Assembly: GCA_003427395.1 (NCBI GenBank)
Contig: BFEA01000034.1
Span: 5,052,690-5,101,565 of the forward strand
Length of the DNA stretch: 48,876 nt
Source of the DNA: Chara braunii
Taxonomy: Eukaryota; Plantae; Charophyceae
Direction: 5' to 3'
A program made the position numbers and the translations under genes. Position 1 is the first letter of the stretch. Each line of letters starts with the position of its first letter. This document shows positions 1,191 through 48,778 of the stretch, piece by piece. A model generated the notes under the pieces. That model had not been told where the DNA came from. It did not search any database and saw nothing but the letters and a program-made list of their open reading frames with translations.

Positions 1191-2159
1191 CTCTCAACGC
1201 GAACGTGCTGTCGGAAGGCGCGGTGCCCTGACCCTCCGTTGTGTACCAGGCATCCGCTCACATGCCCCACATTATGAGAGGCATGCAGTGTGTGGCAGTC
1301 GCTACTGAGGCAAGGAAAGGACCCTCCGCGGGCACCAGGCTTACCCCGTTGCTTGACCCCCATATAGTATCGGGCGTCCGCTCAATTACCTCCGCTGTGT
1401 ACCTGGTGCCTGCTCATGTACTTTTCTTATGGGCCAGGCGTCAGCTCACTTACCTCCGTTGGGTACCAGATACCAGTCCACAGGGTCGTGCGGGATGCCA
1501 GACTTCGTCATTGAGCCTCCCTGTTGAAACACGTGGACTTGGAGTCCTGCCATACAGCAGACTAACCCGTGGCTGAAGTAACCGTCGAAGCCACAAAAGG
1601 GGGGAGCCGAGACTATAGTCGGACGATTCCGTAGTTGATGCCTGAGTTTTCGTTTCCCGCCTAATCATGTCACGGGGGAACGAAACGGTTCAGGTTTGAA
1701 ATCGCAAGCCGAGAATAGGTAGTGAGGGCTGCACGACTTTTTGTTTTAGTATTCCATGAGCCCGACCGGCAAGGTACTACTGATGTGAGGGTCTTAAAAT
1801 AGGAGCACCTGCGGCCGCATCGGTAGGAGACTTGTCACCTCCCGTGAGAGGTTATGGGGCCCCTCCTTGCGATCGGACACAGGTACTCATTAGAGACAAT
1901 CCAGTGACTCGTTTTGAAGGGAGGAGGTGCGACCGCCAGTATCCTATTATGGGACCACTACGACGAGCCTGCGGTCGTCTTATGCCAAAAGTGAAACGAC
2001 TAGTGGATGATAGCAAATTGCACCGCTCGTGTTATGACCGTTGAGGTTCAGCCTCCTGTTTTCATTTTATTTCAGTTTATCTTATTTTATATTATTTTCT
2101 ATTTCCATTGAACTGAAAATGTTTCGGGCGTTTCGTTTAGAACGCGTATAGTCCTGCGC

Positions 2160-2966
2160 ATGGCAACCCTAGAAGAGGAGGGGTTGTTATGCTACACAGT
2201 GCTGGCCAACCACGTATGATCTGAGGATGGGGTAGTCGCACTGGAAAGCGCCGCGATCGTTTGGGGGTCTCTGTTCCTACTACTTCCTAGTGCCTCGAGC
2301 GTGTTGCAGAAGTGTGGGTAGGCAGCGGTCTCGAACATTGGCTATTTGTAGAAAAGGTGGCTATGGCAGACCGAAATGGCCTGCGTGGCTATAGGCTAAG
2401 GTACATGACGTACTCCTGGATGTGGGAACGCGAGGATGAGAAGGGCACCTTGGTTGAAACCATTTTGTCCTCGGAAACCTACGAGGGAAGTGAGGTTAAA
2501 AATTAACGTGTGCGGCCACAGGGAGCAGGAGATGAGGAGAGACGAGGGACTTCAGGCAGCTATTACCGAGGCGCGCAGCAGAGCTGAGCGGAGGTGCAGG
2601 CGAGACGGAGTGACTGCGGTCATGCAGGTGACGGTCACCTACCATGAGGATGACTCATCGACTCGGACCACGACCAGGGAGGTACAACGAGTCGAACGAG
2701 ACTCGGAAGGGGAGTCTGAAATAAGTGACGCGGAGACAACTCAGTCCAGACACAATTGGGATCAGTGGCGGCGGGACCATCCACTGGTGGAACCAGTAGA
2801 AGACGGCCCAGAGGCCAGCTCACGGCGAGAGAAGGACCAGAGCCACGAGGCCAAAAGACGCGAGAGTCAACGCACTAGAACAAGGGGAATGGAAGGGCGA
2901 GCGGTTGTGAGTGAGAGAGAGAGAGCGGGAGAGAGGTCAGGTGACCGAAAAGCGAGCTACACGTGA
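2160..2966 (+). pseudogene. Decayed orphan ORF, charged Arg/Glu-rich C-terminus
   Basis: ATG at 2160; ORF pieces 2312-2506 and 2436-2966 join by a frameshift into a protein-like sequence. No family recognised. Confidence 0.45.
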
Positions 2967-5522
2967 GTGACTAGTTGATGTCATCCGTTGATCGGAATGT
3001 CTGCAGCTCACCTGGGGTTATTTATCTGGTGCTCTGAGGTCGTCTCTCTATTACTCTTGGCAAGGGATTGAACGTGCGCGCATTCCTTTCTCTGAGTACG
3101 TGACCATCAGGGAGACAGGAGTCAGGTAGCTGAGAAGCGTGCTCAGCATGAGTGACTATTGACGTTTGTCACTCATGCTTGAGCTTGGACACGAGGGATA
3201 GTCATCCCCTGCACTCCGAAAACAAGAGATCTAACATGCCGAGTTTGTGAGAGGGCGGGATCACTGAGCGAGTGAGCCTGTGAATGATGCTCCGGGGGTT
3301 ATCCCGCAAGGGCGGAGCAGCTAGAGTCACAAGAGAATGGTGGACAAGCGATGACGGTGATCAGACCAGTTTGATGATTTTAGTGGCCTTGATCAGGGCG
3401 ACATTGCGAAGTTGGAGCTGTGAGTGACTTATTTACCCGCGCGTGAGCAATTCGATAGGCTTGCAGTGGCCGGAGTCTACCCTCTCGGTGGTTGTCATCT
3501 CCATTGGATGTCCATAGTTGGGCTTTAGTAACGAGACGCCTTCCTCTACCCATGGCTTTAATCGTTCTTTGATTGGGTTTGGGATGGTAAAAGTGTGCCG
3601 CTGCACGATCTCCGTTCTCATACATGTAACCCGCGCCTTCAACCGTCTTGCTGAGTTCAGCGAGCACGGGGCACGAGTGTGACTTGTTCGAAGAGGAAGT
3701 GCATTCATGAAAAAGTCATGGCCAATAGAGAGTATGAGTACAGGAGTGTGAGAAGCGCAAGAGGGGCCGACGAGGGCAATTTCAGAGGCCATTGACTTCC
3801 ACGCTACCTTTTCCTGTTCAGTGAACTCTGGATCTAACCAGTTTTCAAGGCACTTACTATGCCGTTAACGTAGGAGGGCTCTTCTTGATTGAACTTTGTT
3901 GGACTAATAATTTTTTTACTTGTGTTCGGTTTTCCTGACGAGCGTCTAATGTTGACTCTGAATCAGTAGGTTGGGTAATCCCCTATCAGTCACTCATCAT
4001 CATGACATAGGTCACTGTCAACTGTGGTTGAGTAGCATTGATCAAATGACATCCATTCGTCGACGTTTGCGAGATGGTTGTTTCGAGTACTTAAACGGAT
4101 AAAATTGGAGAATAACAAGAAGGTCTTCAGAGCGATGGATTATAGCCTATGAGAAAATAAGGAGTTCTATGTTTCTTGCTCGTCGGAAAAACTAGTAGGC
4201 AGATGAGTGAATTGGACAGTAAGCAATCATAAGCGTTTGGATTTTCGGGCTTATCAGATAGGTCCCAGCCTGTTTAGTCAGAGTTAATACAAAACCTCCC
4301 CTTTACGCAATGCAAGAGAGGGTATGGTCTTAATGTTTCCTGGTATGTATGTATGGATGATGGATGGGCAAGAAACAACGCACCCTGAAAATGATTGCTT
4401 ATCTACTCACAAAATACCTCTTGGATGGAGACTAAACCCATGATCAACCCGAAAGGATTGAGCCTACGCCGAACAAGCGAAAGATTTGGAATGCGGCGTT
4501 TAAAACCCTCCAGCTTAATCTGTTTGTTTGCTATGTACCCCTATTAGTCTAAACCTATTTGCGATCAATTTGTGATTCTCCCCTATCTTGAATACTACAA
4601 TGTGATGAGGATCATGGTAGCGCCCAATGTGGTATTTAAGGAAGGAGATGGGAACACTAAAGTCGCCCCTTGCCGTGCTCACACGAGGGTTACACCAGCC
4701 TCATCTGGTATGGCGTGAACAAGGGCGCAAGCCCTGACTTACGTTTCCTCATGCTGAGAGAAACAATATTCTTCTTTATTTATTCACCTATTCGGCCATC
4801 TACTAGCTTAGCGTTTTAACTTGATTCAAGGGGCAGGTATTGCCCTACTTCCTGCCTCAAAGTTTGCAGTGTTCCGAGTTACTCCTGAGTAAGGGTTAGG
4901 AGCGTCCACCTATTATATAAAATGCAATGGGTTGGACTTTCGACAAAATACTTTCTCTAGTACAGAGATTGACATGGGGTTCTTGGGGGATGGACATAAG
5001 AAAATGCTCTAGCAGACGTCGAAGTGCTTAGCAAACGCGGAGAAATCATATCTAGCTTTGTATTTAGGACAACCACGCTGAGTAGGGTGTGACTCTATAC
5101 TCTGAGCAGCGGTGTTAGACTCTGATGAACTCAGTACTCGAGACTGTTGTGCTGTTTACAGTCACGTCCAGAGTTTAAAGTCGTTGCCCTTAAGTACAAA
5201 GTGTTCAGCCTCGTACCCCATGGTGGTTTGAACCCGACTAGTGGTTGTTGGCCACACTTAGGGGTTGATCGCTATTCTAGGCTCAGGACGGTTATGGGCT
5301 CGATGAACCCTTAGGCCCCGTCTTTACACCGGCTGCTCGAGACTCAGGAATCGACCTGGTCTAGTAACAGAGGGCCTGATGCCGAATGCTACCTTTAAGC
5401 AATTATAGTCGGCTAACTCCGGTGCAGCGTCGGGGAAAGGCAGTTGAGTCCTACGGTCCTACTCAAACCCGAGATCAATTACCATTTAGTCCCATGGGAA
5501 CTTAAAACCCTGAGTAACAAAC

Positions 5523-6180
5523 TATGAAAATAATAGTTGCTGTTGTAGTGAGAGAAATATGGCTGCAGAGGCTGACCTCCTGCCAACAGAGGACTATTAA
5601 TTTTAAGGCCCAGGTGTCGAGTGTGACAATAAGAAGTCACTGGTAAGGGGCATCTTGGTGACCAGTTTATCCCCTCCGGATCGGTAACTTAAAGTCCTTT
5701 ATGGTGATAACTCAGTAATCTGTAAAGGTCTCGAATACAGACAAAAGTTTCCACAACTCCAATTATCAATCCATGAATCAAACTATCTGTTCAACGCGGC
5801 AATTGACAGTGAAAAGGACAGTGGGTATGTCCAGCGTAAACATTCGTATGATATATGTATCACTTCATTAGGACAGAGGTGAGAACTGAGAAGACAAAAT
5901 TTTCAAAGGTCGAGGGTCACAAAAGGGAACCGAGGGACTTGGTGAAAAGAGGGGTTGAAAATTTACACGAATCCATGAGAATAAGTATCGTGCACCCACA
6001 AGATCTGAGGAGAGAATGCATAACTCAACCTCATCCCATGAGAGCATTCGCACAGCACCGTCGGCTTCTGAGAACCTTTTGAGGACCTTCTGGGCAGTCA
6101 AGTCCATCTCCATTGCAACCACCCACATAGCCGCAACAACTGCAAAGGACAAGTACCTCGTTTGCTTAAGTTACTGTCAG
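5523..6180 (+). pseudogene. Decayed orphan ORF with possible RNase H-like motifs
   Basis: Manual translation ...VICKGLEYRQKFPQLQLSIHESNYLFNAAID... then, after a frameshift, ...FSKVEGHK... Confidence 0.3.
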
Positions 6181-6895
6181 TGTTAGTCCAAATAAACAAT
6201 CGTCGATGAGGCCCCAAACTCTAGGTGTTTCCCAAGAGTGTGTGTTGGGTGTCTTTCGCAGAAGGCATCCCCCTTTCTTCCCTTATAACGGGGATCAGAC
6301 CAGAGCTCAAAAGTGGGGTCCTCCATGCTCTCTATTAATCAACCCTCGGGACTATCACGAGGCTGATACTCACGACAGGATTTCAAGACAGGAGTGAGCA
6401 CCTCTTAGAGCACCCCCTCATGGTTGAGCCTTGGTGAGTGAAGGGAATCATGAGGGAAGAGGAAATACTAATGATGAAATGTGAGGTTATTTTGGAGAAG
6501 CATGAGAACTGGGAGGACGGAGCTATCCTGAGTATGGAGTGTCACAAAAAAGACTTGAGGGAGAATGCAGTTCGAAGGATTAAGGAAGAAAATTTCATTG
6601 AGTTCATGTTTTATTTTCGAGATCAGAATGGCGAGTTGCATAGAACAGCACCTTAAGCTAGCGAGTGTCACTCCATAATTTGCAGTCTCTTCAACTCTCA
6701 TACACTAAGTGACCAGTGTTTATTTCATTATCCAACCAGTATCCAGACAGCATTCAATCAGCATTTAGTCGTTAGAGTTAGTTGAAAGTTTCAGTCAGAG
6801 TCAACCAGCACTCATTCATTCGTATTTGCATCAGAGATCAACAATCAATCATTACTAAAAGACAAAGGGATTGATTTTAGCATCCGACTCTGCTC

Positions 6896-7525
6896 ATGAC
6901 TGCAGTTAAGTCTCTTCTTGTCAGTGAGTCGGTTTTGACCAGCCTTAACAAGATAACCCTCAAGGATGCCTTCCAATACCGATATGTCAGTGCAGTTGGT
7001 TTCAGGCAGGGAAACCTATCAGTTTTTGTGGTTCACATGAAGTTTGCGGGAGGTACCATTCATGACTTAAGGGTCTACCTGAAGAGGGGCAAGGAGACTC
7101 ATGAACACTTCGATTCAGTTTGTGTCTCTACAACCAGGTACCTTGAAGAGAGAGAGAAAGACGTTGGTGAGAACGATGCCAAACTGATCCGTAGCTTCGG
7201 ACCCAAGCTTTACATTGACTACCCCAAGCCTCCGGTACCCTTCACTCTCACAGATGGTTCTTACTAGGGTGACCTGGTGGATCTGGCCAAGAGGTACATC
7301 TCTCCCACAACAATTGACTATGAGGCAGTGACTTAGCCTTCAGAGTTCCGGCATCTCAGACGAGGGATCTTTTCTCAATCTTATATTCCTACTCTATGGG
7401 AGGAATTTTGTGCTATGGTTGACTTCTGTATCATTGGACCTGGGTGGAAGTGTTCAGACCTTGCAGGCTTTAGATGGCTCTGTATTCAGCGACCGCAACC
7501 TCAGAAAGTACAGGGGCGTGGCTGA
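6896..7525 (+). pseudogene. ~209-codon orphan ORF with two in-frame TAG stops
   Basis: ORF 6896-7267 continues in frame past TAG 7265 and TAG 7334 to TGA 7523. An acceptor-like TTTTAG lies just upstream. Confidence 0.55.
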
Positions 7526-8324
7526 AGGCACAGGAAACGCACAACAAAATGAGAGATAGAGTGTATGACTCAAAGGGATGAGTGAGGACCCTTTATGAGT
7601 GTTGGCCACACTCCCTTCATGTGTACTTTCTGAGATTATTATCGGTTCTCACTTTCCCCCCATCTCACTTGTTTCTATCTTGAGTCAATCTGTCTCTGCT
7701 TTGTCTACATTGATTTTGCTCAATGATGATGCTCTCTGGTGATATTGTCATAGTTCTTAAAACAAGTAAATTAGCAAAAGTGATGCATGCATGACACACC
7801 AGGGTTTTATGATCGTTATTTGTATAATCTTTGCTATTCCGAATCAAAATAAAAGATTCATAAGACCGGGGACCGACGAAGACCACAATTGAAGGGTCTC
7901 GCTCGAAGTCGGACCCACATAACAGGAAGGGAGTTGCTGTAATTTATTTATTTATTGCAAAACATCAACAAAATCCTGCGTGACAGCCTGTTGGTTTTCT
8001 GGTCGCCCGAAGAGGCCCGACTAAAAAAAGTGCGACAAAAATGGCGTCGTTGCCAGGGCCATGAAAAATTTTCATGTCCAGAACGAGTTTGGGGCAACAA
8101 CCGTTTTGAGCTTTTGATTAGGACATGAGAACTGTTGACAAATCCTTATTTTCATATTGACTTTGACGTCTTGGTTGAGTCATTATTTTCTTTGAAATCC
8201 TAGTTGCTAACTTAGTCATATCTCCTCATGTGTGAGGTAGTACAAAGTCACAAGGTCATGAACGCAAACACAACAGTGAAGCAATCATAGACAAAGTAAT
8301 TGAGTGCAATTGATGTTGCAAACA

Positions 8325-8843
8325 AGATAGAAAGAATAAGAAGAATTTATGCTAGCGTCCCCGACGCGTTTCAACGGCCGTTACGCCGTCATCATCAGGG
8401 GGAATTCCACCGACAAACCCGTACTAACTAAGCTGACCACTAACCCACTTCCGCCTGCTGAACCTACTGGTCTCCGGACACCGATAGGCATCGCAGGCCG
8501 TCAGTCCTGAAGAGAACAAACAATTGGCTCGGGCGCAATTTATACCCAAAAGACAAGACCACACACTATGACTGAACTTCATCTACCAAAACGCAGGTCA
8601 CCAGTTCGAGCTGGATTCTATAATGCCCAATGTGACCCACATACTGAGAAGGCCAGACCCGTAGGCCTACGAAAGGGGAACCAACCACTTACGTCCGAAA
8701 CCGGATAGTACCAGCCTTCGAAGGTAACCAAAGAAAATACCCTACATGCCAAACACGAGTCATACTCTACGGCCTCCCTAAGAAGGCAAATCAAAACCAA
8801 GCATCAGCAAACAAACAAATACAGAAACGAACGAAAAGAAACA
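8325..8843 (-). mobile_element. ~520-bp non-coding hammerhead-containing insertion (PLE-derived or retrozyme-like)
   Basis: Flanked by the 7-bp direct repeat GCAAACA (8318-8324 and 8844-8850); interrupts an ORF; carries a hammerhead. Confidence 0.65.
8358..8403 (-). ncRNA. Minimal type I hammerhead ribozyme
   Basis: Minus strand reads UCCCC CUGAUGA U GACGGC GUAACG GCCGUU GAAA CGCG UC GGGGA: core boxes, stem I, stem II, palindromic stem III, GUC site. Confidence 0.85.
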
Positions 8844-9200
8844 GCAAACACCCTATCCGAATGCTCAGTGAGGTGTCACACTGGATTGGAGAGGGAGACT
8901 GACATTATTCAGTGAGGAAGATCAGGCTTGATCACATGTATGCCTTATGAGCCCTTGACGTCCTTGAAACATGGAGAGAGAAGAGAAAGGGTCAGAAGTC
9001 TAAAAACTCCGTCGAGAATGCTAACAACTGATGCATTAAAAAAACTCTCAAAATTCACTATTAAAGAGATAGTCCCCTATTAGTATGAGCACTGTTGGGT
9101 TTTTCATTCTGGCAACTCGACCATTTGTGTAGTGCCAACGTGCTTCTTGGAGGGAGATATCTATAATATTCGTCCTTATGTCAAAAATGAAGGATGCAAC

Positions 9201-10050
9201 CAGGGTTGTCGAGCCCCGGCCCCGGGGCCCCGGCGGGGGTCCTAGGGGCCGGGGGTGGGCACCCCTGGCCCCAGCAAAAAAAGTAAAAAAAATAAAANAA
9301 AAAAAAAAATAAAAAAAAAACAAAATAAAAAAAAAAGGGGGGTGCGCAGCCGCAACCTGCACCCCCTGGGCCAAACTGCAATATTGCAGTTTTGGCCCGA
9401 CCTCGCCCCCCCCCCGAGGCTACACTCCACCCTCGTAAGCCCGGGGTAGTGCGGGCGCGGGGCCGGGGNNNNNNNNNNNNNNNNNNNNNNNNNNNNNNNN
9501 NNNNNNNNNNNNNNNNNNNNNNNNNNNNNNNNNNNNNNNNNNNNNNNNNNNNNNNNNNNNNNNNNNNNNNNNNNNNNNNNNNNNNNNNNNNNNNNNNNNN
9601 NNNNNNNNNNNNNNNNNNNNNNNNNNNNNNNNNNNNNNNNNNNNNNNNNNNNNNNNNNNNNNNNNNNNNNNNNNNNNNNNNNNNNNNNNNNNNNNNNNNN
9701 NNNNNNNNNNNNNNNNNNNNNNNNNNNNNNNNNNNNNNNNNNNNNNNNNNNNNNNNNNNNNNNNNNNNNNNNNNNNNNNNNNNNNNNNNNNNNNNNNNNN
9801 NNNNNNNNNNNNNNNNNNNNNNNNNNNNNNNNNNNNNNNNNNNNNNNNNNNNNNNNNNNNNNNNNNNNNNNNNNNNNNNNNNNNNNNNNNNNNNNNNNNN
9901 NNNNNNNNNNNNNNNNNNNNNNNNNNNNNNNNNNNNNNNNNNNNNNNNNNNNNNNNNNNNNNNNNAGGGTGGGCCACCCCCGCGGCGGGGGTCCGGGGGT
10001 CAAACCCCTACCCCGGCTTTGCCCCAAGGGGCCCCCGCCTGACAACCCTG
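9201..10050. mobile_element. Non-autonomous hAT-like DNA transposon (interior partly an assembly gap)
   Basis: TIRs CAGGGTTGTC / GACAACCCTG with a perfect 8-bp TSD GATGCAAC (9193-9200, 10051-10058). Confidence 0.9.
9469..9965. other. Assembly gap (N run)
   Basis: Run of n. Confidence 1.
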
Positions 10051-12053
10051 GATGCAACGACGATGAGACCTTTAATTGGTTACGAGAAATGGCAGTGCAA
10101 TCTATCGATGATGAAGTGACAAAACTAATCAAGCAAAAGAAGAAAGTGGAACGGGGATCAATGTCAGTAACCTCTGAGATCATCCTAATTCCTCCGATCC
10201 CTAACAGTTACACTGTGAAGGAAATAATTGATTGTCAATAATCAATATGGTATTGAGGTGGGAGGAATGCGCGGACTGTCATGAGAACGAAAAAAAATTC
10301 AACAAAGGAAATCAAACAGCGAAGATCAGGATTTGACAGAGGTTCAGGTCTAAGTAAAGAGAAAGTTGAGTGCCTTCTGAAATCATTGAATGTTTTAGGT
10401 AAGAGGGATTCTGAAGTATTCTCATATGAAAATGTTAAATATGAAATGGTCGAGAGTGGATGGAAACATGAACGATTCTATGTTTTAACATTCTACTTCA
10501 TCGAGTTGGACACATATGATGTGAGGATCTATGTTCCCAAGGAAGGAAGAGTTGAGGCAGTGTATGGAAGATGTTGGGGATTTGTTGAGGAAGTTGTATT
10601 AAAACTTTTATTGGTTTTGTTGGTTTTCACGAATCCTTTGTTTTAACTGTATGGCCCTTTGAAAGGTTAAAGCGTCACCGCCCCGGCAACATCTACGTCG
10701 GGCGAGATGGTTATGCCTTTCACCCTCAGCATAACTTCAATGGCCTTAAGCTCCCCCTGGTCACAGAGCGAATGTCAATGTCGTCCCACCCCACCCTTCT
10801 AATAATAGACTTACCACCCTGAACCGCTGATCCCTCCTCTGAGTGAACCCCCCCCCCACTTCCCACCTGCCTCTAATTCAACCTTCCCCCTTTCGTTTGC
10901 AAGACCGCATCATAGCAAATTTGAACTACAACTTCCGAAAAAAATTCAAGAAATGAACGACTTCATGCAAATTAAGTCCAACCTTTGGAAGTTTCCCAGA
11001 TGCAGATCGAGTACAAGATTGAAAATCGTCCGCAACTTTGTGCGTTCCTTTAGAAATATCTTTTAATTTGAAGACAAAATACGAATTTAAAAAACATGTA
11101 AAATATCATTGGAATACATCATCAACTGCCCCAAATAGGACTTTCGACCAATGCTATGAAAATTACAAGTTGAATTATCCGACAAGAACTATCGTTGAGT
11201 ACTTTTGAAACTTACAATAGATAACTAGAAATCAATCCCTAAAGAAAATCTTGAGAATGTAATTCGAGAATTCTTACCTATTTGTAATCAAATTTTCATG
11301 TAGAATTATCCTGCTAAATTTTCCATCAAAAATTGTAATTCAAAACGAGCAGATCATAATCAATCAGTGAGGACTATCAATTAAGAATCAAAGATGAATT
11401 CAACATGAATTATAAATTTTGAATTCAAACAGAAAGCGATTCTATCCCACGTGGGCCAGATCATAGTAGTACGTGATGAACAATCATACGAGCTACGAGA
11501 AATGATACCTTCCTTCCCCTCCTCCTCAACACCAACTTACCTCACCCCCCTCAAACCGTAGCCCAGCGTCTTTGGGGAAAGAGAGACACCCCTCCTCCCA
11601 CTGCTAGTAATGAAAATCAATACACTGCTAATACCGAAAACTTCACCGGCCATCTCAAATCCTCCAAGGAGAGACAGAAATGGTGTGGCACCTCCTCACC
11701 AAGCCCGCCAACGAGTCACCACGCCCACGAATCTCAGAACCCTGCAATGGCAGATTCTTCATCGTTGTCTGCCGACTCCCTAGTGGCTTGTTTTGAGAAA
11801 GGACCTTGAGCAATAAGGGCTACAATCTCCCATCTGCACCTATTGTGACGAGTCAAAACCGCCGGCCCGGCAACACTGGAACAATGCTTGCTGGCTTGCC
11901 AAATGGTCACCCAATTGTGGTAGTGCGAGGACTCTTCCGTCCACTCCCTCACGGGGTTGCACATCCCGTGGCACCTCAAGCTCCTGCTGCCTGGCAAGAT
12001 CCAACATCTGCTGGCACAACGGTCCCCCTTTGCTACCCATCTATTCTCATATA

Positions 12054-29028: not shown

Positions 29029-29813
29029 ACCCACACATACACCCCTATCGAAAAAGAATTCACCTAGAACAAAACGAGAGCCTAGACAATAATTGAGAAC
29101 TCACTCAAAATATTAACCGCTCTCCGGCTAAGCCCTACGCCCAACACGAAAAAATGCAAAGGCTACCTACTGAGATTAAAAACCATTTAACACAGTCCTG
29201 GGTTTAGACAAGCCCCCTTGCAAGCACCAGCATTAAAACCTGACAAGAATATGAAACTTCAGGGACGTGCGCAGCAATACGCTCACCTTATTCCAAACAC
29301 AGACATATTGCCCTTTAAATTTTGAAAAACAAAATTAATATGAGAAAATAAAATAATAATTAAAAAAAAAAATTAATTAAAATTAATTAAAAAACATAAA
29401 TCTTACACTTAAAAAGCAAAGTAAAATTAACTCTTTTTCACAAAAACCATAAATTATACGCTGTCACACCGCACATCTCCTGTCACATTACCGCAAACAC
29501 AAGGTAACACAACAAGACACCCTATATCCACACTCTGGACACCAATTGGCAATACTCATCACTGTTCGTTCGTACGCGTATACACATACACACCACGATC
29601 CAGATACTACATATATTAGAAATTAAAAATAAAAAACGATGCCTGCGCAGAATGCATAAATCGACCCCTTACCATCCGAATATGTTTGTTACAACACTAT
29701 TACGTGGCAACCGTCATATAGATTATCATATCCCTTTGGGAACGCCATAAGATTGACCAACCGAATACACGTGGTATAACTAATACTAAATATATAACCG
29801 CAACGTGTGCAGG

Positions 29814-33726: not shown

Positions 33727-34372
33727 CATGCCCTCCTTCTGGTAGCCAGCCGGCCGAGAGTTCGTTAGCATACTGTCTGAATCTCGGTTGCTGACAAAAG
33801 CATTGGTCCGGGATTTGCTCTATCCAGGTAGATATCTTGAAGTCTTGAAAGACGACAGCTGGTTCGTATAGAGCTTTGGCTATGTGGTCGTTGTAGGTCT
33901 ATGAGAAGGTGAATTTGTCTAGGACATGTATGGCTTCAGGGTTGTGTATTTGCATTATAAGTTTAAGTATGTTTTTGAATCTAATTCTGTCCATTATCCG
34001 GTTCGCATAGTGGTAGGAGATGATCTATTTGTCTGTTGTCTTTGTTGTTCTCCAGCCGAGCCTTCCGTCCTCCATTGCGTGAAGCCGTGGATCCTTCACA
34101 TTTGTCGGACAGATGGCTGAAAAGAGTTTAGATTCAATATTAATAGACTTAGGTGTGAGGATCGCTATTGCCATGCTTATTTCGGGGAAGCGGGAGAGTG
34201 TAAAAGGTAGGCTATTTTCAATGTTATCCTTCCAAGTATGCCAGAAGGTGTTTTGAGCCACTAGTGGTAGCGACTGCGTATAATCTGTATATACTAGTTT
34301 GTATGGGGTAAGAGGTTTTAGTTCTGTGTAGTATATTACAAACGGCTGATGTCTGGGTGTGCATGTGTGCAT
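33727..34372 (-). pseudogene. N-terminal fragment of a Penelope-like element RT ORF
   Basis: In-frame read-through gives ...MDRIRFKNIL...FS*TYNDHIAKALYE...CFCQQPRF...EGGH, resembling the pre-RT 'Y..I...L.N...CxC...F...GH' region of PLEs. Recognised from memory, not aligned. Confidence 0.55.
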
Positions 34373-34909
34373 TTTAGTGTTTCAAGCGGTGTTACTGAGC
34401 ATGGTAATTTAACATCTATAGTTGTGTAGATGGTAGTTTATCGGGGTAGTGAGATAGCTACATGAGTACTCTTTGTCTTGGGCAGAGGTCTAGGTGACAG
34501 CAGACAAAGCTACAAAAATGAGCTAAAAATGAAGTAAAAAATGAAGTCATACAGGCGAGTCTTCTCATATCTTATTCTGGGCAACACAGTCGGCGAAGAC
34601 ATGCATGTGTTGGGTTCATGGAAGTGTATGCAGCCGATCATCCGGTACAGTGGAATCAGCTAGTCGAACTTTTTCATTCAGATCTGCTTCCTGAACTTCT
34701 ATTACTATCTGGTCAGAGCGCGAGATCTTTCAGAAACCATATCCATCCATCTGTGTTTGGACATTCACACATGCCAATTTAGACAGAGTAGTCACACATT
34801 TGATTAACAGAATTTTATGTTTGGAATTCATATCATCAGTCTGTAGGGGTCAGACTCCTTAGCCATGTATAGGATATAGGTTTATGACAGACTTTTGTTC
34901 CTTGTGTGA

Positions 34910-35695
34910 TGAAGGCTCCCGTGGAGTCGTCACGTTGCTTGCATGAACTGACTAAGGTAAATAATGGGATACTCCCGAAAGAGTTACCCTGCCATTCACC
35001 CGACTAAGTAATGATCTGGTGAAGTATCTGTCTGATTTTCGGCGTTGGTAACGGGAAGATGTCGTGCGTCTTCTCTGTTACTTTACGAAAGTAGGTGTAG
35101 GAGGTAATCCGGTTCTCCCGTGGGGTACATGTCTTCAACGACTAACAAAAGCAAAGGTGATAGGAGGGCTCTCCTATCACAGATCTGACCAGACTTGGAA
35201 AGGAACTAAGTACCCACTGTGTGAGTACACGAACTCCTAAGTCTGGGGCGATCTGTCCGACCTCCCGTAGGAGTCGGCATACCTTTTTCTCGTTAACAAT
35301 GCATAGTCAAGATAGATGAACGGTCAGGATGACTCAACGAAGAGTTCTTCTTTATTAATCTTCTACACATCAAACTGGTGGTAGGATGGCTCCCGGGAGG
35401 GTTATCCTAATACTTGTTTGATTCGGAGATCAACTAACGAGGGAAGAAATGACGAAATTGTGTTTGGACAGTAGAGGGATACTCTCATGTGAGTAAACCT
35501 ACTACTTGTTTGGGTATGACTGATGAATGACATAAGTAATTACTAACGATCTATTTGGTTAACATTAAATCAGGCTATGGGAGGCTCCCGTGGGGTCGTC
35601 CTATCGCTTGATTAAACGAGTGATATTCACAGTCATTCAGGTAGTAGTAGGATAACTCCCGTGAGGTCATCCTATTACAAGCTCGGACCTGAGCT
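34910..35695 (+). other. Cluster of ~11 hairpins, most capped by a CUCCCG(U/A/G) loop motif
   Basis: Examples: ggctcccgtggagtc, taggatggctcccgggagggttatccta, taggataactcccgtgaggtcatccta. Confidence 0.7.
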
Positions 35696-36298
35696 GGAAT
35701 AGTTAACTGAATTTAACTTTATTTATGCTCGTGCTCAATCGATGATCATACTCGATAGCGTGGTAATTTTCATACTATCTCACCCCTATACAGTTCCCGT
35801 CTAGCAGCGTGCGCATCATCATATCCTTACATCACATAGGCGTGTTGTGTTAACTTATGTATCGCGCCATTATGACCCTTACTTATTAAGCTCCTATTAA
35901 CTATAAACTTACAAGTGTTGTTTTGCATGTGCTGTCTTGCATAAAAATTTGTGTGTTGTGCTGCCAAGACGCAAAAAATAAGAAATCGAGAAAATCAAGA
36001 GAAAGGCCACAATAAAAATTTTCTAAATAGGCTTATTGACTTCATAGAGGAGAAAAAAAAGATTGAAGGAGGAAGAAGAGAAAGGAAAGAGAAAAGAGAA
36101 TGGTATAGGGTTGTACGTTATCATGGTCACTAGCACAAACATACAATCTCCTCTGATAAAATGACTAGATACCTTTTTTTTACATGAAATATTATACCGC
36201 TCATTACCGTGCTTGAGTCGCTTTCCTGTATCCATCCGATGATAAAATTATACTCCTCCCATATTCATCCTACCTCGTTGCAAATACTTGACCGTCAC

Positions 36299-41574: not shown

Positions 41575-41994
41575 TCTGATACCTGTTTACCTACCAGTAC
41601 CAGGTATTTAAAAATGTCAACGTTTGTCTTCCTCTGCTCGGCCTTGAGTACCCGCAACACATTTATCTCTACTTAGTTTAGTAACGACACACCCGCTACT
41701 CGAGTATTTTCCAATTGCTTTCGAGTGTCGTGGAGCTTTTTGTTCGCCACTTAAGTGTTTTCCCCTGCACGACCCTCAAATATCGCGGCCACGGCTAAGT
41801 ACCGGCCCTTCGGGCCCTCCGGTTAACCAAGTACCCTTGCGGGTTACGCATACACTCAAACCGACAAGCATTCCGACAGACATGCAACCCCGGCAAGCGA
41901 GCGCACCCGCAGACTTAGAAACGGGCTCAGACCACTAGGTGGACTGAGCCCCACTTCAATATATACCTGAGCTGCTCTTCTTGTAACCGAAGTA

Positions 41995-42083
41995 GGAGCT
42001 AGCTCAGTGGGTTTCCGTGTGGATTGCAGATTGGAGGACTCGGGGATCGAATCCATCCGACCTCTGAACTAGCTCTTTTTTTT
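41995..42083 (+). ncRNA. Small Pol III RNA copy 1 (vault/VA-RNA-like architecture)
   Basis: A box TAGCTCAGTGG, B box GGATCGAATCC, terminal stem GAGCTAG.TCAG/CTGA.CTAGCTC, T8 terminator, upstream TATA-like motif. Confidence 0.75.
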
Positions 42084-42170: not shown

Positions 42171-43220
42171 TTCGTTTGAAAACGAGGGTTCGACAGTTGG
42201 CATGAGTAGGTATTTAGTTGTTAGATTTGGTTGTTTTTTTTATTTTATTTCTTTTTCGTTGTTAGTTGGATTCGTTTTAATTTTAATTTAATTTTATTTC
42301 TTTTATTATTTCTTATTTCCTTGTTTTCTTGCTAATCCCATAGCTGCCTCAAGTTTCTAAAAGATTCACTATAGTGAATCTACGAAGGAAAGTCCAGCAG
42401 ATTCGTTTTGACGAAATCTGCTCGACTCCATACGTACCAGCCCGAGACTTTGGCCCGCATGCTTGGGCTGAGTGCACGGGCAAACGCAACGAGCGCATAA
42501 CAACACGGGAGGAGAGCTCCGACGGGAAGAAAAAAAAAAAACGCGCGGGGAAGGAAGAGGAGCACGGCGACTAAGGCACCGGCGAAACGCGAGGAGAACA
42601 ACAGAGGGAATACGCGGTGTCAGGGCAGAAACCCTGACAAGGGTATCTGCCCGTGTTTTTCAACATCGGACGTTGTTTGACCTTTTTCTTAATTGGAGGA
42701 CTTGATGAGATTGACGTGCCAAAATTATTCAGACCAGCGCTATGACTGAGAGACTTAAACTTTTTTTGAACCTGACGTCGTCGACGCAGGATGACATCGA
42801 CATCCGTGTGGGATAACGGGAGTCGGCACTGTCATCCGAGGGTCTCGACAAGGCCGCAGTAGTGTGCGGTCATGGGAAAACTAAAATTAAAACTTAGTCT
42901 ACCTATAATAAGGTTGCGCGACTGTTAAGCTGGGCAATTCAGGGCCTATGCGGGCCAAAAAGGGGACACCGCGACGAGATTGGATCGCGGCGTGAAGGAA
43001 CGGTTTAGGGTCCATAGGGCTTATGTGCCGAGGACCCGGGGGCGAAGGCGTCGAGGCCGGCAGGATGGGGCAGCTGTGAAAGTTGTCGGCCATCGACCCC
43101 GCCCGCCAGCCACGGCAACAAGCTGGCTTAGCAGGCGCAGCCTGCTAGGCGCTGGGAAGGGGCCTGCTGGGCACCAGGAGCCCTTCATATAGAAGGGTCG
43201 CTCTTCTTCTGATGTGAAAA

Positions 43221-43312
43221 GGAGCTAGCCCAGTAGGTATTGACGCCAGCTTATCACCCCGCAGATATGGGGATCGAATCCGACAACTTGCACTACCGGG
43301 CTAGCTCCTTTT
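43221..43312 (+). ncRNA. Small Pol III RNA copy 2 (vault/VA-RNA-like architecture)
   Basis: A box TAGCCCAGTAGG, B box GGATCGAATCC, 15/16-bp terminal stem, T4 terminator, same upstream TATA + GCTCTTCTT. Confidence 0.75.
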
Positions 43313-44009
43313 GGAGCAGCCCGTGACTTGACCATGGGTGTGGCCGATTTTCGGCCGTGCGATCTTCGAGATCGCGCGGCTGAAATCAGCCGGGCCGAGA
43401 TAGCATGGCCCCTGTGTAAGGACGACACGCATATATCGAGAAAAGGGCCAAATTTTATTTTTCTTATTTTGGAAAAAAAAAAAAAAAAAAAAAACCTTAC
43501 CTGTTCCGTAGCTGGACGCGTAGGCATCCAGGTACGGGCGCGAAGGAGACAGCAACAATGTCAAGGTAAGTTGGTTCGTTTTTCTTTTGTTGTTTTTCTT
43601 TTGTTTTCCTTTTTTTTTTTTTTTGTGTTTCTGGTGTCATCGGGGTAAAGCGACACGACGAGAAGTGAATGTTGGGGAAGAAGAGGAAAAAAAAAGAGAA
43701 AAAAAGAAAAAAACTAAACTAAACTAAAACGAAGCGCCATCTGGCGCTGGGAGAACTGACGGGGACTTAGTGTCCCCACGAAANGTAACGGGCGCCCGTT
43801 TTTCGGGCAGCCCTTTCAGATCAAGGTAGGGTTTTCCTTTTCTTTTTCTTTCTCTTTTCGATTTTTTTCATTATTAGATTTTGCTTAGATTTTTTTTTTG
43901 TTTCTTTTGTTAGATTTGGTTTAGATTTTTTTTATTTTTTTTTTTATGTCTTTTGTTTTTTCCTGGTACCCGTTCGTTTCAAACGAACGGGCCGACACGA
44001 CTGTGCCAG

Positions 44010-44060
44010 ACTGTTTCGTCGGACTTTCACCGACTCATCAGGAGGCTGAACCCCGACAGT
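44010..44060 (-). ncRNA. Intact type III hammerhead ribozyme
   Basis: ACUGUC^GGGG UUCAG CCUC CUGAUGA GUCGG UGAAAGU CCGAC GAA ACAGU: all core nucleotides and three stems present. Confidence 0.92.
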
Positions 44061-44252
44061 ATGCCCGTGGGCAGTGAATGTGCCGCCTTAGGCGGCTAGG
44101 TTCAGAGAGAGAGAGAAAAAGAGAGAAAAAAACAGAGAGAGAGAGAGAAGAGGAAAAACACACTTACCTGCGCCCGTTGGGCAACGGGCTGCAGATCGCC
44201 GCCACACCTGGCGTAGTAGGCGTCCGGGTCCGGGTGCGCGGAGGGAGGGCAA

Positions 44253-44285
<33 letters not shown>

Positions 44286-44302
44286 ACTCTGTGAAATGAC
44301 TT
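44253..44302 (+). rRNA. 50-nt fragment of 25S/28S rRNA (domain V entry), not a gene
   Basis: AAAGAAGACCCTGTTGAGCTTGACTCTAGTCCGACTCTGTGAAATGACTT matches the conserved plant LSU sequence as I recall it; flanks are not rRNA. Confidence 0.85.
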
Positions 44303-45518: not shown

Positions 45519-46606
45519 AACGAGAGTTTTGCGGCCGAACTTTTTTCAGCAAATACTTGGCTTTCTTGAGTGAGCCTTCAAAAAATTCACTCAAAGTCAG
45601 TGCAGCTCAATTCCCTTGCACACCCGCGTGAACCCACACCTTGCATGACCTTGCTTTGAATTCAGGGGAAGAGGTAGAGTAAGAGTGTGATGTCATGCAT
45701 GTGACGAAAGGGCTGACTTGTTTTGGGGATGGATGGATCTCTGGATTGTTTCTTTTCTTGATTGTGCAGGTAGGTTGGGGGATGCATGAGAAAAGGAATC
45801 AGCATTGTTTGCTTGGGAGAATAATGGGGATGCTCACCTCTCTCCCACTCAACCTGAATGCATGTGACAAAAAAAAGGAGGGAAAAAAAAAAAAAACGGG
45901 AGTGCGAACGAGCGGGTGCCGGAAGAATGAAGACCGTGGGAAAATTAAAAGGAAAGAAGATAAGGAAACACCTTAGTATCCTCCCAAGGGTTTCCCCATT
46001 CTATCCCGAACGACCACTATCCTTCTATGCCCGTCCAAAGTATCTTACTTCTTTCTCTTCTCAATTCGTCTAAGTCGACCCTTAGCCGGGAAGGCATAGA
46101 GCGGTCGTCCGCACCTAGCGTCTAGGCTTCTTCTCTCTAGGAGGCATCCGAGGCGGGGGTTCGTTGCCTTAGGGGCCGGCCCTGTTATCGACTCGAAGCG
46201 GACCGCTTATGCGGGGGGATACCATGCTGTTGCGGTGGAGCCAGCCTAACTTCTGAGTCCTGAACAATGTGTTCGGGCGAGGGGGAGGGGTATTCCAGAC
46301 CACTTCTTAGAGCGTAGGGGGTCTTGAAGCTAGGAGCAGGCGCCTCCTCGTGCTTTCAGGGAAAGGGGAGGCTGAATCTAGTACCCTGCTGGGTGGCCAT
46401 ATTAGGTGCCACCAACGCGTGGGAGGGCTGGCGCTACAAGAAGCCCAACCCGTACTTCAACTAGTGTTAAAGGAAGTGCAAATAGGCACTACTTACGCGG
46501 TCGGACCGTGACATAAGAATCGCGGTCCGAAAAGGGGGGTGAAAATTGAATATGGAAATTGGTATGCCTAAATTTATTTTGACAAAGTTATCACTTCGTC
46601 GTTCAG

Positions 46607-47106
46607 ATGCTTGCGGAGACAGTGACCCCCCGATTGTTCAGCACACGCGAGGCGGCGGCTAATTGGTTAGCGGTGCCGACACGATCCCGCGCCGGTATGA
46701 TACGGAAAGGAAGGTGTACAACCCACTTGAAGTTTACTCGGAACGGGATGTGCCACGATTCTGGGACGGGAGTGTGAGGAAACCACCGTGGTGTTATATT
46801 TTCTTGGTTGAACCAAGCTAGCATATTGTACGATATGACTTCGCACCGCTCTACCCGTCTCGGGATTATGGAGACATGAACCTTGTCGTGATCCACGAGG
46901 ACTGTCCGAGAATAGAGACCATTCTTGAGATTAGAGCGATGTTTATTCACATTGTACTCCACTTGAATGATCTACGAGGTCCGTTCGGCCTCCTTCATCA
47001 TGTGAGACGGGTCTGAGCGAATAGATTTAATATCATTCGCTCGGAACGTTTCGACGTCACCGCGTTTTATGACGAGGCTTGTGAAATTTACGAGCGCCTC
47101 TTCTAA
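46607..47106 (+). pseudogene. Decayed orphan ORF starting at TTCAG|ATG
   Basis: MLAETVTPRLF..., frameshift, then ...RKVYNPLEVYSERDVPRFWD...YDEACEIYERLF* with TAG/TGA stops. Confidence 0.5.
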
Positions 47107-47129
47107 CAGGTGGCTTCTTCGATTTGCAG

Positions 47130-47681
47130 ATGCCTAACGGACGACGAGACTTCACTCAGGCCAAATATCTACTGATTCACGACACTACGGACGAGGAGCT
47201 GATCCGGCGAGCGGAGCGATTACTACTGGTTCGAAATGGAGCACCCACACGTTGGATTGGCTTTATCGGCCTGCTCAGTGATGGGCAGGGATTTTTTCCC
47301 AACTCGCGCGCAGATGTTCGTGCCAATATGACCCGACTTCCGGAAGAAGTTCATGGATATACCTTGTACTTCCATCGCGCGAGCAACCTCCAATGCCTCT
47401 CTCGGGTCATTGTGAGCGTTAAAATTACCCTATCCGGGAAGCGCTACGGCGTCATCCGGATTAAGCACACCACGACCACGCACCTTTTTCGGATGCGTCA
47501 GCCGTTCCGCGCCATAGTCTGGAAGCTCGCCTTACGGATGGCTTCTCTCTATGATATGCGGAAGGTCCGAGTTGTGCGAGGTGGACGTGTTTCCACCTTG
47601 ACATTTGACGATGAGGAGCTAACACGCCTCGGTCGGATAGAGGCTGAGGCCCATGGGGGCCGACAGGTTTATCCCGGCTAA
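47130..47681 (+). CDS. Intact 183-aa orphan basic protein starting at TTGCAG|ATG
   Basis: Open ORF with protein-like composition; CTAAC branch-like site at 47103 and a pyrimidine tract upstream. Confidence 0.6.
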   Translation: MPNGRRDFTQAKYLLIHDTTDEELIRRAERLLLVRNGAPTRWIGFIGLLSDGQGFFPNSRADVRANMTRLPEEVHGYTLYFHRASNLQCLSRVIVSVKITLSGKRYGVIRIKHTTTTHLFRMRQPFRAIVWKLALRMASLYDMRKVRVVRGGRVSTLTFDDEELTRLGRIEAEAHGGRQVYPG

Positions 47682-48778
47682 GCGCACCCTCTCAAATCTG
47701 GTGTCATGGTGAGTTGTCCTTATAGTAGGGTCACGCCTATGTGACTCTACAGGGGTAATAATAACAAAAAAAAACAACGACCTTGTGTAGGTAGGCCAAC
47801 CGGATGGATAGTATCTGGATTGCCCCGATGATAGCACTATCATGTTGATGCATTGAGGGGTAATCAACCACTTAAAAATACGCTGAATAAAGTGAAGGCC
47901 GAACACTTGAAGAGGTGTCGAGCGGAACAACGAGGACGGGGTAACAGAAGACGAAACAGTCCCACGCCAAGTAACTTCGTGTTGGCAATGGCTACTTCGT
48001 CATTCGTGGAACAGAGAGAGTTATTATTGCCTAGGAGGACAAAGCGACAAACAAAATTGTCATTCGCTCCTCCAAGTAGATACGTGCGGTACGACGGCGC
48101 GGTCGGACCGGGAGTTTAAACAGCGACCAGGAAGCAGATCACTTGTTGATCTGCATGTACTTACTTGTAGGGGCTGTGCGCGACGGATCTTCCGTCCTCG
48201 GATGACGGTATAATTATCTCTTTAGTCACGTAGGCAGAAAATGATAACCTTGGCATATCATCTCATCAAGTCGAAATGTTGGTTATGTATCGGTTTCGTT
48301 CATTTTATGAGTAGGGGATTATAAAGGGGCTAGGATTATATGTTGGATTTCGCATTTGGTCGAGGCCGTCCTAGTCGACCGACACTCGTTCGTACCGAGG
48401 AGATCAGCGCCCTCGGGAACGAACAACGTTCGGGTTCACTTGGCGTTGGCCAAGCGTACCTATACTCCAGCGAGCGAGCAAACGCCCTCGGCTGACCTAC
48501 CTCTGCAATTGCATGTAAAAGCTTTCGCACGTGGGTCAGTAGCTCGGTAGGGATACGCCCCTAAGGGTGGTGACAGCCCCTCAGGGAAGATAAGTTGTGC
48601 CCCGCGAAAACCTATCCTGTCGTAGGGGACCGCGGGATGTGTAGCTGGCGCACCCGGCTAGAGCGGCGAAGGGACAATGCGACCACATCCGTCTCGGTGG
48701 TTCGCGGGATTATTTCTGCACCGTCCTAAGTTGTCTCTCGATTACGTTTTTCTAACTCTTGCGTGACATAGCCGGGAG

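What the first reader, a model, noticed from the sequence alone, without database searches (positions are those of the whole stretch)
1200..48778. Candidate giant multi-ORF, ribozyme- and ncRNA-bearing mobile element (Terminon-like PLE or endogenous virus) forming the matrix of the window
Seen: after removing the Gypsy and MITE insertions, the rest is densely packed co-oriented orphan ORFs (2.1-10.6, 27.5-32.6, 40.8-47.7 kb). They alternate with structured non-coding blocks, hammerheads (22039, 44010, split 790/2037; the 8358 one is in a nested insert), two Pol III RNAs and two PLE-like RT remnants. The left and right blocks share a homologous hammerhead region, and the left block shares the CUCCCGUGAG hairpin with the 35-kb array. 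Known: Penelope-like elements carry hammerheads, and bdelloid Terminons are giant PLEs with strings of accessory ORFs. Inference: these are decayed copies of a comparable, possibly undescribed, giant element family. It may be more than one family, since the 27-32 kb block is C/A-rich and the others are not.
Basis: partly seen in the sequence, partly recalled or inferred. Interest (0 to 1): 0.85.

Follow-up and report, generated by a model that had tools for sequence, protein, structure and literature searches.

The report
Algal retroelement patchwork carrying RNA cargo
This stretch, likely from a stonewort alga, is likely not one giant element but a pile-up of at least three repeat families: a known Penelope-like type, a likely LTR retrotransposon with unknown small genes, and a multi-copy 14-kb stretch, possibly also LTR-type, that carries a hammerhead ribozyme fold and look-alikes of cellular RNAs.

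Summary
The parts are mostly real; the single Terminon-like or viral element is not supported. Host is likely Chara braunii. (1) 29-34.9 kb is a rearranged low-copy PLE-X element (described in 2021): the 349-aa 'orphan' is its ORF1, and the only detectable RT-gene remnant is its ORF2 start, inverted. The 22039 hammerhead resembles PLE-X; 8358 lies in a nested insert. (2) The left block holds an LTR end plus an Athila-type tRNA-Asp/Asn primer site at 8030-8054, backed by other genomic copies, with three paralogous orphan ORFs around it. (3) 34.9-48.8 kb is multi-copy throughout, with hairpin and tandem arrays, orphan ORFs biased to third-position change, two homologous Pol III-like RNAs, a U6-like RNA, a 28S-like piece and a type III hammerhead, and stops at a candidate self-priming LTR end. 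Summed depth differs up to 100-fold between blocks; left and right share only a 27-nt hammerhead piece, a motif found in thousands of places. No capsid, polymerase, gag or pol was detected in the orphan blocks. Long-range linkage could not be tested (no assembly held). The RNA-laden right block is the part worth following.

The parts
791..817 (-). 3' half of a type III hammerhead (stem II, GAAAC, stem III), no CUGANGA
   Evidence: 24/27 identical to 44008-44034
2014..2058 (+). Possible 5' half of the same hammerhead type, opposite orientation; marginal
   Evidence: nhmmer E 0.43; score 31 vs shuffle max 33
2118..2966 (+). Decayed orphan ORF region, about 50-125x summed depth
   Evidence: 185-aa open stretch longer than in 99 of 100 shuffles; depth; no family hit
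3233..6868 (.). Low-copy segment (about 3-9x), identity unknown
   Evidence: no Pfam hit in the three + frames of 3901-6902
6896..7555 (+). Orphan ORF, paralogue 1 (two internal stops), high copy
   Evidence: 33% identical to 9018-9200 (tblastn E 9e-5); 6 of 8 listed variants at third positions
7860..8038 (+). 3' end of a likely LTR, ending GTGCGACA; its start was not located
   Evidence: about 4,000-6,000x depth; 84 and 79 contigs run off into unlike sequence at 8037/8038
8042..8054 (+). Primer-binding site of the Athila/OTA type (tRNA-Asp/Asn), after a 3-nt A spacer; 12/13 here
   Evidence: matched in 1 of 100 shuffles; 77% of depth (73 contigs) carries the exact motif
8345..8860 (-). Nested 3' fragment of a likely Chlamys-type PLE with a type I hammerhead (8349-8403); boundaries approximate
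   Evidence: core found; layout like Chlamys-2_cBra by eye; skipped by another copy, about 8x depth
9018..9200 (+). Orphan ORF, paralogue 2, cut by the MITE; same frame resumes at 10059
9201..10050 (.). hAT-like MITE with CAGGGTTGTC termini and 8-bp target duplication GATGCAAC (insert, not matrix)
   Evidence: empty site 9184->10057 in 2 contigs
10257..10643 (+). Orphan ORF, weaker paralogue 3
   Evidence: leave-one-out E 0.023; 3 of 4 variants at third positions
22039..22089 (+). Type I hammerhead of the PLE-X layout with a broken core (CAAA for GAAA)
   Evidence: sequence compared by eye with the PLE-X1_cBra motif in the supplement of PMC8557442
27500..29300 (+). C/A-rich ORF-enriched stretch, unidentified; possibly the 5' part of the PLE-X copy; not a detectable RT
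29804..32576 (+). PLE-X ORF1 (CxCx1-8C motif CPCNGC) with low-complexity tail
   Evidence: 104 relatives, 13 at E<=1e-30; named top hits are Chara braunii proteins; motifs shared with PLE-X1/X2_cBra
32630..34240 (-). Inverted 5' part of PLE-X ORF2 (linker and CxC at 33734-34237 detected; RT core downstream only suggested by eye)
   Evidence: profile E 3e-16; other copies break off at 32621 and start at 32632
34900..35700 (+). Array of long hairpins capped by CUCCCGUG-like loops
   Evidence: fold z -5.1; about 180x depth
36297..37040 (.). 71-nt tandem array, 8-10 copies
41985..42080 (+). Pol III-like RNA a (A box, B box, terminal stem, oligo-T)
   Evidence: box labels recalled
43215..43312 (+). 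Pol III-like RNA b, homologue of a
   Evidence: a related contig in run X15, whose RNA status is a guess
43360..43495 (+). U6-like RNA lacking the ACAGAGA box, followed by a poly(A) run
   Evidence: Rfam U6 43 bits, E 2.6e-8
44008..44062 (-). Intact type III hammerhead fold, antisense to the ORFs
   Evidence: Rfam RF00008 49.1 bits; about 8,500x depth with unlike flanks in DNA and poly(A) RNA reads
44253..44302 (+). About 50-nt piece matching large-subunit rRNA
   Evidence: identity recalled, not from a call; contigs of two runs continue past 44302 with one shared unlike sequence and depth peaks here
46552..47106 (+). Orphan ORF A (three internal stops)
   Evidence: 2 of 2 variants at third positions; no hits
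47130..47681 (+). Orphan ORF B, open, 183 aa
   Evidence: stop-free stretch longer than in all 100 shuffles; 4 of 8 variants at third positions; no hits
48650..48778 (+). Candidate LTR end (GCGTGACA, 48761-48768) followed by 10 nt complementary (9/10) to 48651-48660, as in self-priming LTR elements
   Evidence: about 9,700x depth at 48608

Best explanation
The window is likely intergenic DNA of Chara braunii built from decayed copies of at least three likely unrelated retroelement families stacked next to and into each other, not one giant element. Family 1 (29-34.9 kb, probably also the 22039 hammerhead) is PLE-X, an endonuclease-less Penelope-like element; this copy has its ORF2 part inverted and cut short. 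Family 2 (6.9-10.7 kb) is likely a Ty3/gypsy-type LTR element primed by tRNA-Asp/Asn, in which small paralogous orphan ORFs stand where gag-pol would follow the primer site; it would move with enzymes borrowed from autonomous Gypsy elements. Family 3 (34.9-48.8 kb) is a repeat of at least 10-15 close and hundreds of partial copies, most likely a large non-autonomous LTR-type element: it would be copied through RNA, its hammerhead would cut the opposite-strand transcript, and its Pol III-, U6- and 28S-like modules would serve as promoters or decoys. Shown: the homologies, the primer site, the paralogy, the depth steps. Inferred: separate origins, LTR nature of family 3, non-autonomy, every function.
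For: PLE-X; inversion junction private to this copy (exact contig across 32552-33158, other copies end at 32621 or start at 32632). LTR/primer site; 15,904 of 20,634 depth has the exact motif, and contigs diverge at 8037/8038. Paralogues on both sides of that junction. Depth over single-copy level (median 11.5 of 9 exact contigs): 3-9x at 3.2-6.9 kb, 210-4,400x at 6.9-8.1 kb, 4-27x at 29-34.3 kb, 43-273x at 35-40.3 kb, 199-707x outside peaks at 40.3-48.2 kb. No protein or long DNA similarity between left, middle and right blocks. Coding constraint: 15 of 22 listed variants in four ORFs at third positions, p 0.0009. Right end. Large plant OTA elements carry extra ORFs, LTRs to about 5 kb and tandem arrays (PMC6317226, passages); plant type III hammerheads sit in non-autonomous LTR elements (PMC4918200, passages).
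Against: No second LTR, no LTR start and no target duplication was found for family 2 or 3; no gag or pol outside the Gypsy inserts, so lineage rests on the primer site alone. The self-primer is 9 of 10 nt, and about 1% of GACA sites show an 8-nt match by chance (6 of 514 hits, one site counted twice). Summed contig depth is, by the tool's own note, no true copy number, and depth steps also arise inside one family with deleted derivatives. Depth in the right block varies widely (minima 10-15x), so it may itself be several units. The hammerhead halves at 791 and 2014-2058 break within the same core, which would fit one rearranged copy related to the right block. PLE-X2_cBra has 'termini ambiguous' and by eye small extra ORFs, so long PLE-X forms are not excluded. 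The codon tally uses only the 80 best-supported of 2,282 variant rows, and falls to 15 of 29 (p about 0.03, hand count) if seven rows in ORFs of doubtful frame are added.
Confidence: 0.66

Rival explanations
1. One giant Terminon-like PLE: an endonuclease-less PLE-X lineage that has gathered strings of accessory ORFs and RNA modules, so that left, middle and right blocks are decayed parts of one family copied by its own RT.
For: PLE-X lacks endonuclease and carries hammerheads (PMC8557442 section 9); ORFs are co-oriented; PLE-X ORF2 abuts the right block at 34.9 kb; degenerate CCCTAA-like hexamers follow the 22039 hammerhead (7 near matches vs 1.3 in shuffles, one of 16 tests).
Against: LTR end plus tRNA primer site in the left block; PLE-X part 4-27x against 43-700x for the adjoining right block; the PLE-X and Chlamys hammerheads listed for Chara are type I, the right one is type III and antisense; none of the 6 right- or left-block motifs sought was found in a Chara PLE hammerhead or RNA context in the published consensus file (one chance 10-mer in PLE-X2); no exact telomeric repeat.
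Confidence: 0.1
2. The orphan-ORF blocks are fragments of an endogenous DNA virus or Polinton-like element, whose Pol III RNAs act like adenovirus VA RNAs (resemblance recalled).
For: Tightly packed small ORFs, paralogous ORF family, tandem Pol III-like RNAs with closed terminal stems.
Against: No hit in Pfam, PHROGs (0 of 17), NCBIfam (0 of 13), viral contigs or solved structures; a tRNA primer site and termini at thousands-fold depth fit retroelements. Sensitivity is limited: ORFs are decayed, minus frames were scanned only in part, and both models were too poor to search (pLDDT 42 and 36).
Confidence: 0.07
3. The right block is no unit at all but an old heap of short repeats (SINE-like Pol III units, a U6 retrocopy, retrozyme-like hammerhead units, ORF scraps) that was amplified together by segmental duplication or Helitron-like capture.
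For: Depth swings from 10-15x minima to 8,500x peaks; hammerhead reads have unlike flanks on both sides; U6-like piece ends in poly(A); a contig joins 48632 to 42616, and the 42.6-kb motif recurs at 41.26 kb.
Against: All ORFs and Pol III-type modules share one strand, GC skew is uniform (+0.12 in all three sub-blocks), no bin falls to single copy, short joints in other copies are mostly colinear, ORFs show third-position bias.
Confidence: 0.17

Closest known systems
PLE-X1/X2_cBra and Chlamys elements of Chara braunii (Craig et al. 2021, PMC8557442)
   Same: ORF1 with CxCx1-8C motif, ORF2 linker with CxC, type I hammerhead layout, inverted partial copies
   Different: ORF1 is 61-80% identical to some Chara proteins but only about 30-38% to those that carry the published PLE-X1 motifs, so it is likely a further family; copy broken and inverted; covers only 29-34.9 kb and perhaps 21-22 kb
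Athila/Tat/Ogre (OTA) Ty3/gypsy LTR retrotransposons and their LARD-type derivatives
   Same: TG..CA-type end, short A/T spacer and TGGCGCCGTTGCC primer site (left); extra orphan ORFs, long non-coding regions and tandem arrays (left and right)
   Different: No gag-pol found; paralogous ORFs on both sides of the LTR end; no paired LTR or target duplication seen; host is a charophyte
Plant retrozymes (Cervera et al. 2016, PMC4918200)
   Same: Type III hammerhead in a likely non-autonomous LTR-type repeat; hammerhead-bearing RNAs in poly(A) reads
   Different: Retrozymes are under about 1 kb, non-coding, with paired hammerheads and a tRNA-Met primer site; here one hammerhead, antisense to the ORFs, inside many kb
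Cassandra / Helenus / Ajax TRIMs (Kojima 2024, PMC10886601)
   Same: Pol III-type small-RNA-derived sequence inside a likely LTR-type element
   Different: Those are under 1 kb with one 5S- or tRNA-like piece; here two Pol III-like RNAs, a U6-like RNA and a 28S-like piece in a 14-kb stretch with ORFs
Terminons of bdelloid rotifers (as described in PMC6431247)
   Same: Strings of co-oriented accessory ORFs and hammerheads
   Different: No RT linked to the ORF strings, no reverse-complement telomeric repeat after the hammerheads, dispersed high-copy ends, tRNA primer site

Membership tests
PLE-X (29-34.9 kb) | N-terminal extension with CxCx1-8C motif | tested here: met
   (profile E 3e-113)
PLE-X (29-34.9 kb) | CxC linker ahead of the RT | tested here: met
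   33734-34237(-), E 3e-16
PLE-X (29-34.9 kb) | RT core | tested here: inconclusive
   not above background; motif-like words by eye only
PLE-X (29-34.9 kb) | 3' type I hammerhead | tested here: inconclusive
   a PLE-X-like one lies at 22039, upstream and unlinked; none 3' of this copy
Terminon | Endonuclease-less PLE RT linked to a string of accessory ORFs | tested here: not met
   no RT signal in left or right block; depth of PLE-X part about tenfold below the adjoining block; long-range linkage itself not testable
Terminon | Reverse-complement telomeric repeats right after the 3' hammerhead | tested here: not met
   no exact or tandem repeat of four common plant/animal units (units recalled; the host's own unit was not looked up); only degenerate hexamers after 22039
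Terminon | Telomeric or subtelomeric location | not testable with these tools
   no assembly
OTA/Athila-type LTR retrotransposon (left block) | LTR end, 3-6-nt A/T spacer, tRNA-Asp/Asn primer site | tested here: met
OTA/Athila-type LTR retrotransposon (left block) | Paired LTRs, polypurine tract, 5-bp target duplication | tested here: inconclusive
   no second copy or clear start in the window; element is cut by other inserts
OTA/Athila-type LTR retrotransposon (left block) | gag-pol of the OTA clade | tested here: not met
   no Pfam hit in + frames of 8931-11803; so it works like an LTR element but is not filed as Athila
Self-priming LTR element (right block) | 10 nt or more after the LTR end complementary to the LTR | tested here: inconclusive
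   9 of 10, then cut by a MITE; criterion from PMC6317226
Retrozyme | Type III hammerhead fold | tested here: met
Retrozyme | Two hammerhead-bearing LTRs within about 1 kb, tRNA-Met primer site, no ORFs | tested here: not met
   one hammerhead; no such repeat or site
Endogenous DNA virus / Polinton-like | Capsid, packaging ATPase or pPolB | tested here: inconclusive
   no hits, but decayed ORFs and unusable models limit the test

The most novel reading that the evidence does not exclude
34.9-48.8 kb is one copy of an undescribed giant (8.5-14 kb or more) LTR-type element of Chara that carries its own RNA toolkit, namely a type III hammerhead, two VA-like Pol III RNAs, a U6-derived RNA and a 28S piece, together with orphan proteins under selection; it belongs to a group of Chara elements that share this hammerhead at thousands of sites, a giant coding counterpart of retrozymes and Pol III TRIMs, with the left block as a second family of the same design.
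Probability: 0.3. Interest if true: 0.78.

Novelty: new variant of a known kind. Interest (0 to 1): 0.52.

Why it matters
The PLE part is known. The rest points at two abundant, apparently uncurated repeat families in a charophyte, the algal sister group region of land plants. If the right block is a unit, it joins in one large element features so far reported apart in small ones: type III hammerheads (retrozymes), Pol III RNA pieces (Cassandra, Helenus) and extra ORFs (OTA elements). A type III hammerhead at thousands-fold depth, with related RNAs in poly(A) reads, would also move the abundant plant-type ribozyme from eudicots back to streptophyte algae, where only isolated examples were reported (PMC4918200, passage). 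It gives direct tests: cleavage, circular RNAs, Pol III transcripts, U6 mimicry.

Tried and rejected
No genome held. Word-index protein searches: PLE-X ORF2 read-through, none; ORF B among longer proteins only, none; left ORF 6893 among near-length proteins only, none; these do not show absence. Atlas gave no answer. Single-sequence folds of ORF B and ORF 6896 were poor; the viral fold search on the first gave no match at E<=0.001 and its weak nuclease-like rows are not used. Viral contigs: nothing. Metagenome scan for the 48.6-kb motif: 0; for the hammerhead core: 9 loci, alike only in the 30-nt core. Run search: no RNA holder listed, no evidence either way; poly(A) reads on the right block were 99% partial matches, so transcription of this copy is not shown. 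Second RT remnant at 21 or 28 kb: rejected. Second PLE-X ORF1 in the window: none. CUCCCGUG hairpins as HDV-like ribozymes: considered from recall; they fold as plain long hairpins and Rfam lists nothing there. The 28S piece as a PLE-X target: the Selaginella target printed in the supplement is another part of 28S. An LTR start at 40293 or 47916: candidates only. Earlier findings of the scan: five look-ups, nothing. No depth data exist for 12.1-29 kb.
Full report
Host and means. No assembly is held. The host is likely Chara braunii: of 10 relatives of the 30-kb ORF that I looked up, 4 are named C. braunii proteins (among them the two best, 80% and 75% identical), 1 is from Riccia and 5 are unnamed or hypothetical metagenome proteins. 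In place of a genome I laid contigs of one DNA run and three further runs on 29,000-48,876 and 1-12,100. Exact-match contigs have a median depth of 11.5 (9 contigs); ratios to this are given as 'x'. The tool warns that summed depth is no copy number, so they are a rough guide.

Observation. The RNA modules are real: a type III hammerhead above Rfam's cut-off, a U6-like RNA just under it, two homologous Pol III-like RNAs and a hairpin array, a 71-nt tandem array. ORF density beats shuffles in the middle block and weakly in the right block, not in the left block. Pfam finds only the two Gypsy proteases above cut-off among 38 proteins and nothing at E<0.05 among 21 read-through frames. Of the 80 variant rows shown by the two lays (of 2,282), 22 fall in four orphan ORFs and 15 of these are third positions (p 0.0009). 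I left out one row in PLE-X ORF1 and rows in ORFs of doubtful frame (1467-1491, 11028-11274, 41156, 45238); adding the seven that lie in listed + ORFs gives 15 of 29 (hand count, p about 0.03).

Middle block: known. The 349-aa ORF at 30033 has 104 relatives and shares its motifs, including the CxCx1-8C motif, with PLE-X1 and PLE-X2_cBra (supplement of PMC8557442). Five of the 104 also match 33.7-34.2 kb on the minus strand; a profile of eight such proteins gives E 3e-16. That is the linker and CxC at the start of ORF2. A frameshift-tolerant scan of the whole window finds only this place above background (77.7; 16 null chunks up to 37.2), so the second RT remnant is not confirmed. ORF1 (+) and ORF2 (-) meet at about 32.62 kb; one related contig stops at 32621, another starts at 32632, and only an exact contig crosses. 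Turning the minus part round would give the published order, so I infer one rearranged copy. Depth is 4-27x. The 22039 hammerhead has the PLE-X1 layout by eye with a broken core; the 8358 one has the Chlamys-2 layout and sits in a stretch that another copy skips.

Left block: an LTR junction. At 8030-8054 the sequence reads GTGCGACA, AAA, TGGCGTCGTTGCC. The Athila primer site for tRNA-Asp/Asn is TGGCGCCGTTGCC after a 3-6-nt A/T-rich spacer (bioRxiv 10.64898/2026.03.20.713144, passages). One mismatch or better occurs in 1 of 100 shuffles. In the DNA run 15,904 of 20,634 depth at 8047 carries the exact motif, and 84 and 79 contigs run off into unlike sequence at 8037 and 8038, as solo or 3' LTR ends would. 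Depth here is 4,000-6,000x. The ORF before this end (6896) and the ORF after the primer site (9018) are paralogues (33%, E 9e-5; leave-one-out E 1e-5 and 2e-5), with a weaker third at 10341 (E 0.023). Both inserts in the block have empty sites in other copies. No gag-pol follows, and no LTR start or second LTR was found. Upstream, 3.2-6.9 kb is only 3-9x and 1.6-2.8 kb 47-125x, so the block is not uniform.

Right block: the open part. From 34.9 to 48.8 kb no bin is single-copy: 43-273x to 40.3 kb, 199-707x outside peaks beyond, with point minima of 10-15x. ORFs and Pol III-type modules are on +, the hammerhead on -. The block stops at GCGTGACA followed by 10 nt of which 9 pair with 48651-48660, before a MITE cuts in; self-primers of this kind are described for Tcn1 elements (PMC6317226, passages). 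About 1% of GACA sites show an 8-nt match by chance, so this is a lead. Depth at 48608 is about 9,700x, like the left LTR end. The hammerhead bin reaches about 8,500x, and hundreds of DNA contigs and poly(A) reads match only the core and leave on both sides: the motif is shared by many other loci. The 28S label of 44253-44302 and the VA RNA likeness are recalled, not from a call.

Links between blocks. DNA self-comparison gives no long match between left, middle and right; six-frame comparison gives only the paralogue pair and one weak hit (E 0.008-0.03). The shared hammerhead is 27 nt plus a marginal 45 nt. The two halves break within the same core, which would fit an inversion of 822-2058; against this, a related contig runs on to 2079. 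I leave it open. The CUCCCGUGAG match is within chance.

Mechanism. Shown: PLE-X homology, primer site, paralogy, depth steps, folds. Inferred: three separate retroelement families. PLE-X would copy itself with its own RT. The left family would be reverse-transcribed from a tRNA-Asp/Asn primer by enzymes of autonomous Gypsy elements. The right family would most likely be a large non-autonomous LTR-type element, about even odds within this reading; its hammerhead would cut the antisense transcript and its Pol III- and U6-like modules would act as promoters or decoys. None of these functions was tested. Overall confidence 0.66; rivals: heap of short repeats in the right block 0.17, one giant PLE 0.10, virus 0.07.

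Literature seen. PMC8557442: passages, sections 9 and 15, supplement rows and parts 48-49. PMC6431247, PMC6317226, PMC4918200, PMC10886601, PMC13570524 and the ATHILAfinder preprint: passages only. Searches for Chara with ribozyme, endogenous virus or LTR terms, and for LTR elements with U6, Pol III and hammerhead (listings only) showed no description of the left or right family. The 2018 genome paper, its supplements and Repbase were not seen and may hold these repeats under neutral names.

Verdict. The finding as framed is partly right. One block is a known PLE type, one is likely an LTR element with an unknown ORF family, and one is an abundant RNA-laden repeat of uncertain unity. Novelty: new variant of a known kind. 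Interest 0.52; the bold reading has probability 0.3 and would deserve 0.78.

Noticed in passing
L002, L009, L006, L007: Metagenome contigs of 2.2-2.5 kb with 123-nt terminal repeats (likely circles), almost no long ORF and a type III-like hammerhead with the same stem II as the window's; viroid-like.
   Followed up: partly
window 44008-44062: Poly(A) RNA reads carry this hammerhead core with a few recurring unlike flanks (one seen in 1,241 reads), pointing to an expressed, possibly retrozyme-like family elsewhere in the genome.
   Followed up: no
window 22090-22290: Degenerate CCCTAA-like hexamers 40-60 nt after the PLE-X-type hammerhead (7 near matches vs 1.3 in base shuffles; no exact unit).
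   Followed up: partly
P0028, P0031, P0037, P0045, P0054, P0063: PLE-X ORF1 relatives of 350-540 aa occur in Riccia and in unnamed metagenome contigs, suggesting a wider spread than Chara and spike mosses.
   Followed up: no
window 12054-20000: Two truncated Gypsy copies in tandem on the minus strand, 85-89% alike, each with LTR, purine tract and protease; a palindromic insert at about 17020-17597 in the second LTR.
   Followed up: partly
window 23270-26190: AT-rich tandem duplication of about 1.3 kb, 76% identical, unidentified.
   Followed up: no
window 41260-41302 and 42618-42660: A hairpin motif present twice in the right block; one contig joins 48632 directly to 42616.
   Followed up: partly
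window 43496-43568 and 44162-44245: Two GC-rich structured units that start with CTTACCTG, complementary to a 5' splice site (U1-like, label recalled), one right after the U6-like RNA and one right before the 28S-like piece.
   Followed up: no
window 75-1046: Unit bounded by degenerate inverted repeats (64%), containing the hammerhead 3' half.
   Followed up: no
window 20570-20900, 26700-26830, 29310-29400: AAATTAA-type tracts stand ahead of each C/A-rich block.
   Followed up: no
window 1467-1491: Three listed variants share one codon phase, third position of the minus-strand ORF 1449-1664 (hand count); too few to judge.
   Followed up: no
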